Source of the DNA: Escherichia coli
GTDB lineage: Bacteria > Pseudomonadota > Gammaproteobacteria > Enterobacterales > Enterobacteriaceae
NCBI RefSeq assembly: GCF_024223415.1
Contig: NZ_CP100500.1
Direction: 5' to 3' (one strand)
Length of the DNA: 64,000 nucleotides
Under the pieces are notes generated by a model. It was given only the letters and a program-made list of their open reading frames with translations. It ran no database searches and was not told the origin of the DNA. The position numbers were made by a program, and so were the translations under genes. Shown piece by piece: positions 2,461-2,476 of this stretch (its first letter is position 1; each line of letters starts with the position of its first letter).

Positions 2461-2476
2461 CTGGATGTTCATCCAG
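2461..2476. promoter_or_regulatory. Perfect inverted repeat CTGGATG-TT-CATCCAG in capsid-operon leader (candidate operator)
   Basis: Exact 7-2-7 palindrome in the AT-rich gap between the upstream terminators and the capsid operon start. Confidence 0.3.

What the first reader, a model, noticed from the sequence alone, without database searches (positions are those of the whole stretch)
2461..2476. Perfect 16-bp palindrome in the capsid-operon leader
CTGGATG-TT-CATCCAG lies in the AT-rich region between the FinO gene terminators and the first capsid-operon gene, making it a candidate operator for a dimeric activator or repressor (helper-encoded or the element's AlpA, PerC or RHH proteins) controlling late expression.
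Basis: seen in the sequence. Interest (0 to 1): 0.35.

Follow-up and report, generated by a model that had tools for sequence, protein, structure and literature searches.

The report
LexA (SOS) operator on PICI operon
The palindrome is most likely a binding site for LexA, the host's DNA-damage repressor, placed on the start of the promoter that drives the capsid/packaging genes of an EcCICFT073-type phage satellite; this would tie those genes to the same SOS signal that wakes helper prophages, as is already known for staphylococcal satellites.

Summary
The sequence is real. CTGGATG-TT-CATCCAG lies at 2461-2476: 7-bp arms, extendable to 8, with a 2-bp centre. It sits 36-51 nt upstream of the first gene of a minus-strand operon. 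As a generic palindrome it is unremarkable: the window holds 14 comparable ones against about 7 expected.

Its shape, CTG-N10-CAG, is that of an E. coli LexA box. Its heterology index (HI) is 8.15. Validated boxes score 4.31 (recA), 9.19 (ruvAB, identical arms CTGGAT/ATCCAG) and 12.09 (polB). About 0.01 such sites are expected per 64 kb.

The box begins 4 nt after a perfect TATAAT, so it covers the predicted transcription start. All 80 relatives retrieved by protein homology carry it (HI 5.4-9.6). A divergent Lelliottia element has an unrelated canonical box at the same place. A sister clade lacks it.

The element is an EcCICFT073-type PICI, not a capsid-forming PICI, and EcCICFT073 itself has the box. 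The best reading is a LexA operator that makes the operon SOS-responsive, analogous to SaPI operon I. I found no report of this for Gram-negative PICIs. LexA binding and SOS induction are untested here. Rivals are an RNA hairpin or terminator, another regulator's site, or chance.

The parts
2459..2478 (.). Candidate LexA operator (SOS box), given as a 20-mer: + strand AACTGGATGTTCATCCAGTC, operon strand GACTGGATGAACATCCAGTT. The reported palindrome, 2461-2476, is its CTG-N10-CAG core.
   Evidence: HI is 8.15 using the matrix recovered exactly from 142 published sequence/HI pairs. It is the lowest of the 29 CTG-N10-CAG sites in the window. About 0.0098 such sites are expected per 64 kb. Its arms are identical to those of the ruvAB box listed in PMC12527982 Table S1.
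2482..2487 (-). Predicted -10 hexamer, TATAAT, of the operon promoter.
   Evidence: Read directly from the sequence. The homologous Salmonella promoter TTGCAA-16-TATAAT scores 10/12 in the promoter scan. The hexamer is conserved as TATAAT or TAAAAT in all relatives. The transcription start is not mapped.
2504..2509 (-). Predicted -35 hexamer, TTGCGC (TTGCAC or TTGCAA in relatives), 16 bp upstream of the -10.
   Evidence: Read from the sequence. It matches 3/6 in the window, so the scan did not flag it. It matches 4/6 in L009.
2494..2510 (.). Inverted repeat GTTGCG-CAAAA-TGCAAT (family consensus ATTGCA-N5-TGCAAT) overlapping the -35 and spacer. A probable site for a second, unidentified regulator.
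   Evidence: Conserved in E. coli, Salmonella and Edwardsiella (two copies) and in the clade without the LexA-like box. Function is unknown.
2453..2484 (-). Extended imperfect dyad around the box. If fully transcribed it would form a hairpin followed by the T-run at 2449-2454, which looks like a terminator. Its left arm overlaps the -10.
   Evidence: The fold energy is -15.9 kcal/mol (z -3.8) in the window. In CFT073 (L201:404-435) the stem is 14 bp and is followed by Ts.
2436..2441 (-). Shine-Dalgarno sequence AGAGGA of the first gene.
   Evidence: Read from the sequence. It is invariant in alignment A1.
2219..2425 (-). First gene of the operon (68 aa, no Pfam family), positionally equivalent to the first gene of the CFT073 island operon.
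391..2219 (-). Downstream operon genes: a capsid-E homologue (1164-2219), a decoration-D homologue (817-1152) and a 137-aa ORF (391-804). The operon runs off the start of the window towards the rpp/terS-like gene.
   Evidence: Pfam matches PF03864 and PF02924. The gene order is the same as in CFT073, O157 and Nissle.
2589..2660 (-). Two hairpin terminators (2641-2660 and 2589-2627) that separate the upstream ProQ/FinO gene from the operon promoter.
   Evidence: Inverted repeats I1 and I10 with flanking T/A runs. The 2589-2627 hairpin is invariant in A1.
8942..8961 (.). Second, weaker LexA-like box (TACTGGTTTTCTGTACAGCT, HI 10.33), overlapping the integrase stop codon and upstream of the 83-aa ORF and alpA region.
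   Evidence: Second-lowest HI in the window. It recurs in relatives with HI 8.3-10.3. Islands with a different int/alpA type carry another box (HI 11.58) at the same place.

Best explanation
The palindrome is the core of a LexA operator (SOS box) on the promoter of the capsid-homologue/decoration/Rpp operon of an EcCICFT073-type phage-inducible chromosomal island (PICI).

Proposed mechanism. A sigma-70 promoter (TTGCGC, 16 bp, TATAAT at 2509-2482, minus strand) should start transcription at about 2477-2474. The 20-bp box at 2478-2459 then covers roughly -3 to +17. A LexA dimer bound there would block open-complex formation or promoter escape and keep the operon low in undamaged cells. DNA damage activates RecA, LexA cleaves itself, and the operon is derepressed. 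This is the same signal that induces lambdoid helper prophages. Excision and replication are known to depend on AlpA, which the helper phage induces (PMC6092414). The island would therefore respond to two inputs, as staphylococcal SaPIs do.

What is shown: the sequence match, its statistics, its position relative to a conserved promoter-like sequence, and its distribution among relatives. What is inferred: the transcription start, LexA binding, and repression.
For: 1. Shape and score. The site is CTG-N10-CAG with HI 8.15 in the window and 5.41-9.61 in relatives. Boxes listed for E. coli K-12 in PMC12527982 Table S1 score 4.31 (recA), 6.40 (lexA), 6.98 (uvrA), 9.19 (ruvAB) and 12.09 (polB). That paper's cluster boundary lies near 13.6, and its low-HI peak is at 7.34. 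The ruvAB box CTGGATATCTATCCAG has the same arms.

2. Statistics. About 0.0098 sites with HI <= 8.15 are expected per 64 kb, and about 3e-5 to 8e-5 in the 170-bp leader.

3. Position. The box starts 4 nt after a perfect -10. The homologous Salmonella promoter scores 10/12 with the box in the same register.

4. Distribution. All 67 loci retrieved using only the flanking sequence, and all 80 loci retrieved using only homology to the small protein, carry the box. The studied island EcCICFT073 carries it too (HI 6.81).

5. Direction of change. Substitutions inside the box include G9->A, C15->A and a GTAC centre. These move towards the LexA consensus, and the first two break the dyad.

6. Independent origin. 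A Lelliottia element with only 58% capsid identity has an unrelated canonical box, CACTGTTTTTTCATACAGTT (HI 7.57), 26-45 nt upstream of the equivalent ATG. That box is not part of a terminator-like hairpin.

7. More boxes in the island. Weaker LexA-like boxes that form no hairpin sit just downstream of int in two unrelated int/alpA types.

8. Independence from island regulators. The box does not co-vary with the AlpA allele (26% identity) or with the presence of PerC or FinO.

9. Precedent. [quoted passage not shown]
Against: There is no binding, transcription-start or expression data. LexA was chosen after I had seen the sequence.

The whole core leader is well conserved, so the invariance of CTG and CAG is not significant on its own. 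Within the 20-mer 7 of 20 columns vary; about 22% of nearby core-leader columns vary by my own count of the output, giving P about 0.2 for six invariant positions.

A sister E. coli clade and an Edwardsiella relative have the same promoter without any box, so the box is not essential to the operon.

Published work suggests repression would be partial or can be bypassed. RppA, encoded in this operon, blocks lambda plaque formation on a non-lysogen carrying the island (PMC6739421). [quoted passage not shown]

Position 6 of the box is G rather than the consensus T. The dyad also extends beyond what LexA needs.
Confidence: 0.72

Rival explanations
1. The dyad acts at the RNA level. One version: it is an intrinsic terminator or insulator that stops transcripts reading in from the upstream module, or an attenuator in the leader that an antiterminator overrides. 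The other version: the inner stem forms a 5'-terminal hairpin that stabilises the operon mRNA. On either version the resemblance to a LexA box would be secondary.
For: The terminator scan flags the site on the operon strand. In CFT073 the stem is 14 bp and perfect, with a 4-nt loop followed directly by Ts. Fold energies are -15.5 to -19.3 kcal/mol with z-scores of -3.4 to -5.6 when the whole dyad is transcribed. In Salmonella the outer stem is 8 bp. If transcription starts at A2477, the inner 7-bp hairpin sits exactly at the 5' end.
Against: The left arm overlaps the -10 and the predicted start, so transcripts from the conserved promoter cannot contain the full stem. With the inner stem alone the U-run is 5 nt away and the fold z-score is only -1.7.

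The three positions joining the inner and outer stems are the most variable in the core leader, and no compensating change appears on the other arm.

The T-run is also present in the sister clade, which has no hairpin (z -0.7). The Salmonella site is not flagged as a terminator.

The recA and ruvAB boxes fold just as well as isolated 20-mers (z -3.0 and -5.5), so hairpin potential comes with any good LexA box.

P. aeruginosa AlpA is an antiterminator, but it is a Q-like protein with functional residues up to H142 (PMC9371919), far longer than the 68-aa AlpA of this island. I did not compare the two sequences.

The Lelliottia box and the boxes near int resemble LexA boxes without forming hairpins.
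Confidence: 0.12
2. The palindrome is the operator of a dimeric regulator encoded by the island (AlpA, PerC or an RHH protein) or by the helper phage.
For: It is a symmetric site at a promoter. AlpA is required for induction and transfer, and alpA overexpression alone is used to drive reproduction of another E. coli island, EcCIEDL933 (10.1101/2025.02.11.637232). The regulator of this operon has not been identified in the papers I read.
Against: The same box occurs with AlpA alleles that are 26% identical and with or without PerC and FinO. No other copy of the site occurs in the island within 2 mismatches. The sister clade has a similar gene order but no palindrome. A different motif, ATTGCA-N5-TGCAAT at the -35, tracks the whole family. 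A chance match to the LexA matrix at HI 8.15 is very unlikely.
Confidence: 0.07
3. The palindrome has no function. It is conserved only because the whole leader is young and little diverged.
For: Generic palindromes of this size are common: 14 in the window against about 7 expected. The core leader is conserved overall. Related elements manage without the palindrome.
Against: The match to the LexA matrix is expected about 0.01 times per 64 kb. It sits on the start of a strong promoter-like sequence. An independent box occupies the same place in the Lelliottia element. Two further LexA-like boxes lie in the int-alpA region of two island types. The box is kept in Salmonella, where flanking leader sequence has diverged.
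Confidence: 0.08

Closest known systems
E. coli chromosomal LexA operators, in particular the ruvAB box CGCTGGATATCTATCCAGCA (HI 9.19) and the cho box CACTGGATAGATAACCAGCA (HI 9.54)
   Same: The spacing is the same CTG-N10-CAG. The arms CTGGAT/ATCCAG are identical to those of ruvAB. The heterology index is in the same range or better. The box overlaps promoter elements, as is typical of SOS boxes.
   Different: It lies in a mobile element, upstream of capsid-like and packaging genes rather than repair genes. Binding has not been measured. Its centre, GAAC, is less A/T-rich than the consensus.
LexA control of SaPI operon I, the packaging and capsid-remodelling operon of Staphylococcus aureus pathogenicity islands (Ubeda et al. 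2007, PMID 17581119)
   Same: A phage satellite of the PICI class places a host LexA site in front of its packaging/interference operon, while a helper-specific signal controls excision and replication. The logic would be the same.
   Different: The host phylum differs, and so does the LexA motif (the Gram-positive box differs, from my own knowledge). The operon genes are unrelated (terS, cpm and pti genes versus capsid-E/D homologues and rpp). This would be convergence, not homology. The SaPI case is experimentally shown; this one is a prediction.
LexA-regulated modules of other E. coli and Gram-negative mobile elements, such as colicin operons, the tum gene of coliphage 186 and CTXphi rstA (from my own knowledge, not checked here)
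   Same: A host SOS repressor is used directly by a mobile element to time expression with DNA damage.
   Different: Those sites control lysis and toxin genes or the lysogeny switch. This one would control a satellite's morphogenesis and packaging module.
EcCICFT073, the prototype Gram-negative PICI (PMC6092414, PMC6739421)
   Same: The operon is the same (small ORF, capsid homologue c1499, decoration homologue c1500, and a 144-aa protein the same length as published RppA). The leader is nearly the same and includes the box, at L201:410-429.
   Different: The window island has a different integration site (tRNA-Pro), whereas CFT073's island lies next to phoQ. It also carries an extra ProQ/FinO gene upstream of the leader. 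The published work does not describe this promoter or any role for LexA.

Membership tests
E. coli LexA operator (SOS box) | A 16-bp core CTG-N10-CAG with dyad symmetry inside a 20-bp site (consensus TACTG(TA)5CAGTA) | tested here: met
   CTGGATGTTCATCCAG lies at 2461-2476. All 147 related loci retrieved keep CTG and CAG.
E. coli LexA operator (SOS box) | A heterology index within the range of boxes that bind LexA (published E. coli boxes 2.4-12.1; PSOSP cluster boundary about 13.6) | tested here: met
   HI is 8.15 in the window and 5.41-9.61 in relatives. The matrix was recovered with a maximum error of 5e-5 and validated on held-out pairs.
E. coli LexA operator (SOS box) | The site overlaps or abuts the -35, -10 or +1 of the promoter it represses | tested here: inconclusive
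   The box starts 4 nt after a perfect TATAAT. The homologous Salmonella promoter scores 10/12. The promoter and start site are predicted, not mapped.
E. coli LexA operator (SOS box) | LexA protein binds the site (EMSA, footprint or ChIP) | not testable with these tools
   No binding data were available. No paper in the library reports it.
E. coli LexA operator (SOS box) | The downstream genes are induced by DNA damage in a recA- and lexA-dependent way | not testable with these tools
   The only expression datum found is that c1498-c1501 rise at 37 C versus 23 C in CFT073 (PMC12890032).
LexA-controlled packaging operon of a PICI (SaPI operon I type) | The element is a PICI: integrase, AlpA or Stl regulator, primase/replicase and a packaging/interference operon, at a dedicated attachment site | tested here: met
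   The island has int, AlpA (a weak Pfam match, 17.6 bits, below the 21-bit cut-off), a RepA helicase, SSB and capsid-E/D homologues. tRNA-Pro lies next to int. Its operon and leader are those of EcCICFT073.
LexA-controlled packaging operon of a PICI (SaPI operon I type) | A LexA box lies immediately upstream of the first gene of the packaging operon | tested here: met
   The box ends 33 nt before the ATG in 79 of the 80 relatives and 34 nt in the other.
LexA-controlled packaging operon of a PICI (SaPI operon I type) | Homology of the operon and its operator to SaPI operon I | not tested
   No SaPI sequence was compared. The gene content (capsid-E/D homologues, Rpp) and the host LexA motif differ, so I treat this as an analogue and not a member.
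Rho-independent terminator or leader attenuator | A stable stem-loop immediately followed by a U-tract | tested here: inconclusive
   This is met in CFT073 (14-bp stem followed by Ts). In the window the scan counts only the 8-pair inner stem, and the U-run is offset from it. The Salmonella site is not flagged.
Rho-independent terminator or leader attenuator | The whole hairpin lies inside the transcript that it terminates | tested here: not met
   The left arm overlaps the conserved -10 and the predicted start. Only read-through transcripts from upstream would contain it. This rests on prediction only.
Operator of the island's AlpA regulator | The site co-varies with the regulator allele and recurs at other AlpA-controlled promoters | tested here: not met
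   AlpA of the O157 island is 26% identical to that of the window, yet the box differs by one base. The island holds no second copy.

The most novel reading that the evidence does not exclude
EcCICFT073-type PICIs may be wired directly to the host SOS repressor at two points: the packaging/interference operon promoter (this box) and the int-alpA intergenic region (the weaker boxes found in two unrelated allele types). Gram-negative PICIs would then sense DNA damage themselves, in addition to the helper-dependent AlpA signal, and would have converged on the two-signal logic of staphylococcal SaPIs. The same palindrome could also serve as a terminator hairpin that shields the operon from upstream read-through.
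Probability: 0.3. Interest if true: 0.55.

Novelty: new member of a known kind. Interest (0 to 1): 0.45.

Why it matters
How Gram-negative PICIs switch on their packaging and interference genes is not described. [quoted passage not shown]

A LexA operator on the operon that encodes Rpp would add a host input. Rpp redirects helper-phage packaging and blocks helper-phage reproduction. The operator would explain how the operon is timed with induction of SOS-inducible helper prophages. It would be a second, independent case, after SaPI operon I, of a satellite borrowing LexA for its packaging module.

The island family is present in about 11% of complete E. coli genomes (594 of 5426), including CFT073, Nissle 1917 and O157:H7. 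SOS-inducing antibiotics could therefore directly raise expression of its transfer and interference genes.

The prediction can be tested with standard assays on an island that is already genetically tractable.

Tried and rejected
1. Generic palindrome statistics were not significant.

2. The sigma-70 scan of the window flagged nothing, because the -35 matches only 3/6. I read the promoter by eye and supported it through the Salmonella homologue.

3. Rfam gave only sub-threshold noise over 2200-2800.

4. I looked for other copies of the palindrome. There are none in the island. One 2-mismatch hit at 34104 has HI 18.3 and is probably chance.

5. I tested conservation as evidence. Ungapped column counts were confounded by indels, and one regular expression failed. 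The MAFFT version shows the core leader is too conserved for the invariance of CTG/CAG to be significant.

6. I considered an AlpA antitermination model based on P. aeruginosa AlpA. I rejected it because that protein is a much larger Q-like factor than the 68-aa AlpA here, and because the sister clade has no hairpin.

7. I checked whether the site is part of cos. It is not: the cosN-like sequence is at 312-329.

8. The genome-contig scan with the capsid alignment returned only 6 distant loci, none with the small gene. The loose promoter pattern in viral-contig hit mostly unrelated contigs. Re-ordering the small-protein alignment returned only 6 loci of the clade without the box.

9. The search for TTGCA-N6-TGCAA used the wrong spacing and was uninformative.

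10. One search was an empty script.

11. By eye, I considered Fur, CRP, IHF and sigma-54 consensus matches in the leader. None was convincing.

Full report
OBSERVATION

The sequence CTGGATGTTCATCCAG is at 2461-2476. It is a perfect 7-bp inverted repeat around a TT centre that is not self-complementary. The arms extend to 8 bp (2460-2477), and an imperfect outer dyad reaches 2453-2484.

All neighbouring genes are on the minus strand:
- a ProQ/FinO gene, 3364->2684;
- two hairpin terminators, 2641-2660 and 2589-2627;
- a leader that is 65% A+T;
- a 68-aa ORF, 2425->2219;
- a capsid-E homologue, 2219->1164;
- a decoration-D homologue, 1152->817.

As a generic palindrome the site is not special. 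Inverted repeats with 8-bp arms and a 0-4 nt spacer occur 14 times in the window, against 7.1 +/- 2.8 in Markov shuffles.

WHAT THE ELEMENT IS

The region is present in 594 of 5426 complete E. coli genomes. In O157:H7 and Nissle 1917 the island is about 10.5 kb. It carries int, an AlpA-type HTH gene, Icd-like genes, DUF4222, a RepA helicase or primase, SSB and sometimes PerC. The operon follows: small ORF, capsid-E homologue, decoration-D homologue, a hypothetical gene, a Nu1-like terS/rpp gene and another hypothetical gene. There is no portal, protease or large terminase.

CFT073 has the same operon next to phoQ, including a 144-aa protein, the length published for RppA (PMC6739421). In CFT073 the capsid and decoration homologues are c1499 and c1500 (PMC6092414). 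The element is therefore an EcCICFT073-type PICI, not a capsid-forming PICI. In the window it lies beside tRNA-Pro.

PROMOTER CONTEXT

On the operon strand the leader reads ...GTTGCGCAAAATGCAATCATGATTATAATCAGGACTGGATGAACATCCAGTTATGATTTTTTAAGTCAAAGAGGAATTTCTGACTATG. TTGCGC (2509-2504), a 16-bp spacer and TATAAT (2487-2482) form a sigma-70-like promoter. The window scan missed it because the -35 matches only 3/6. The homologous Salmonella sequence, TTGCAA-16-TATAAT, scores 10/12.

This pair of hexamers is kept in every relative examined, including distant ones. An alternative upstream candidate flagged in CFT073 is not kept. The start should therefore lie at about 2477-2474, so the 20-mer at 2478-2459 covers about -3 to +17. 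This is inference; no start site has been mapped.

THE LEXA READING

The palindrome has the form CTG-N10-CAG, which is the form of the E. coli LexA box (consensus TACTG(TA)5CAGTA; PMC6590174).

To score it, I took 142 sequence/heterology-index pairs for E. coli K-12 from Table S1 of PMC12527982. I solved them for the position weights. The fit is exact (maximum error 5e-5) and predicts held-out pairs.

The window 20-mer scores HI 8.15. The table lists:
- recA, 4.31;
- lexA, 6.40;
- uvrA, 6.98;
- ruvAB (CGCTGGATATCTATCCAGCA, identical arms), 9.19;
- cho, 9.54;
- polB, 12.09.

That paper's best clustering separates binders near 13.6, and its low-HI peak is at 7.34.

The site is the best of the 29 CTG-N10-CAG sites in the window. 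A site this good is expected 0.0098 times per 64 kb and 0.7 times per 4.6-Mb genome.

COMPARATIVE EVIDENCE

A viral-contig search used only the flanks (TGATTATAATCA-N19-TTATGATTTTTT) and returned 67 loci with 44 distinct leaders. All carry CTG-N10-CAG, in ten variants with HI 5.41-9.61. A search by homology to the 68-aa protein, blind to the leader, returned 80 loci. All carry the box; it ends 33 nt before the ATG in 79 of them and 34 nt in one. EcCICFT073 has AACTGGATGAACATCCAGTT, HI 6.81.

Within the box the variable positions are 1, 2, 9, 10, 11, 15 and 20. Three changes move towards the LexA consensus: G9->A, C15->A and the GTAC centre. The first two break the dyad.

Invariance of CTG and CAG is not significant by itself, because the core leader is conserved throughout.

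Salmonella keeps the box (HI 7.98) although flanking leader sequence has diverged. A Lelliottia element with 58% capsid identity has an unrelated and more canonical box, CACTGTTTTTTCATACAGTT (HI 7.57), 26-45 nt before the equivalent ATG. That box is not part of any terminator-like hairpin.

A sister E. coli clade and an Edwardsiella relative share the promoter, T-run and Shine-Dalgarno sequence but have no box. Their -10 is TAAAAT instead of TATAAT. The box is therefore an addition specific to some lineages, not a requirement of the operon.

OTHER LEXA-LIKE BOXES IN THE ISLANDS

The second-best site in the window lies at 8942-8961 (HI 10.33) and overlaps the int stop codon. It recurs in relatives with HI 8.3-10.3. 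Islands with a different int and an AlpA only 26% identical have another box (HI 11.58) at the same position. These boxes are not hairpins.

RIVALS

RNA hairpin or terminator. If fully transcribed, the extended dyad folds at -15.5 to -19.3 kcal/mol (z -3.4 to -5.6). In CFT073 it is a 14-bp stem followed by Ts. Several points weigh against this being its main function:
- Its left arm overlaps the -10 and the predicted start.
- From that start only the inner 7-bp stem can form (z -1.7), and the U-run is then 5 nt away.
- The linker positions vary without compensation on the other arm.
- The T-run persists in the clade that has no hairpin.
- The recA and ruvAB boxes fold equally well as isolated 20-mers.

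A secondary role as an insulator against read-through from upstream cannot be excluded.

An island or helper regulator. The box does not track AlpA alleles or the presence of PerC or FinO, and it has no second copy. The repeat ATTGCA-N5-TGCAAT over the -35 is conserved across the family and is the better candidate for such a regulator.

Chance. This is unlikely given the matrix statistics and the independent Lelliottia box.

CAVEATS FROM THE LITERATURE

RppA-dependent interference works when lambda infects a non-lysogen (PMC6739421). The genes c1498-c1501 are expressed in undamaged CFT073 and rise at 37 C (PMC12890032). alpA expression is helper-dependent and SOS-independent (PMC6092414). Any LexA repression is therefore probably partial, as it is for other boxes with mid-range HI, or it can be overridden.

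COMPARISON AND NOVELTY

The closest mechanistic precedent is SaPI operon I, which is required for packaging and controlled by LexA (Ubeda 2007, PMID 17581119, cited in PMC6092414 and PMC6739421). The host, LexA motif and genes all differ, so this would be convergence.

In the searchable library the only papers containing both LexA and EcCICFT073, or LexA, PICI and AlpA together, were those citing the SaPI paper and a general review of prophage activation. The two papers on capsid-forming PICIs that I read do not discuss this promoter. I classify the finding as a new member of a known kind.

VERDICT

My confidence in the LexA-operator explanation is 0.72. Interest is 0.45.

Noticed in passing
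window 2494-2510 and 2525-2530; L009, L010, L012, L013, L282-L287; L015-L017: The inverted repeat ATTGCA-N5-TGCAAT overlaps the -35 of the operon promoter. It is conserved in every relative that has this leader, including those without the LexA-like box, and Edwardsiella has two copies. Kosakonia, Superficieibacter and Kluyvera relatives instead have three direct TTGCAC repeats about 11 bp apart. The binding protein is unknown. This is a plausible site for the island's or the helper's activator.
   Followed up: partly
window 8942-8961; L022:17790-17809; L021:17509-17528: Weaker LexA-like boxes (HI 10.33, and 11.58 in a different int/alpA allele type) lie immediately after the integrase stop codon, upstream of the alpA region. 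Two unrelated sequence contexts have a box in the same position.
   Followed up: partly
window 8823-8907: A cluster of four TTGCA/TGCAA pentamers lies within 85 bp, around the start of the 83-aa ORF next to the second LexA-like box. About 0.16 are expected by chance (my own estimate from the pentamer density).
   Followed up: no
window 2453-2484; L201:404-435: The dyad extends beyond the LexA 20-mer. In CFT073 it is a perfect 14-bp stem with a 4-nt loop followed by Ts, and the scan flags it as a terminator. Its left arm includes part of the -10. It might stop read-through from the upstream module.
   Followed up: partly
window 2480-2491: A perfect 12-bp palindrome, TGATTATAATCA, contains the -10 hexamer, which therefore reads TATAAT on both strands. 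It is imperfect (TGATTAAAATCA) in the clade without the box.
   Followed up: no
window 312-329 (minus strand): A sequence resembling lambda cosN, GGGCGTCGACCTCGCGCG (2 mismatches to the lambda cosN region), lies downstream of the 137-aa ORF. It is probably one of the island's cos sites.
   Followed up: partly
window 10420-10496: A tRNA-Pro (ggg) gene lies next to the integrase gene and is probably the attachment site. Nissle 1917 has the same arrangement, whereas the CFT073 and O157 islands sit next to phoQ.
   Followed up: partly
window 6455-8242: This stretch has no convincing long ORF; the 595-aa ORF listed there looks spurious. In O157 and Nissle the equivalent region is annotated as a truncated Icd-like pseudogene, and Nissle also has a plus-strand YlcI/YnfO-family gene there. 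The window has a plus-strand ORF at 7572-7985 ending in a sequence that looks like a ribbon-helix-helix motif.
   Followed up: no
L012, L013, L114, L282-L287 versus the box-bearing clade: The clade without the LexA-like box has the weaker -10 TAAAAT, and the clade with the box has a perfect TATAAT. A stronger promoter therefore goes together with the repressor site.
   Followed up: partly
L201 (CFT073) 463-3655: A published transcriptome reports that c1498-c1501 are up-regulated after a shift from 23 C to 37 C (PMC12890032). This is consistent with these genes forming one transcription unit driven from this leader.
   Followed up: no
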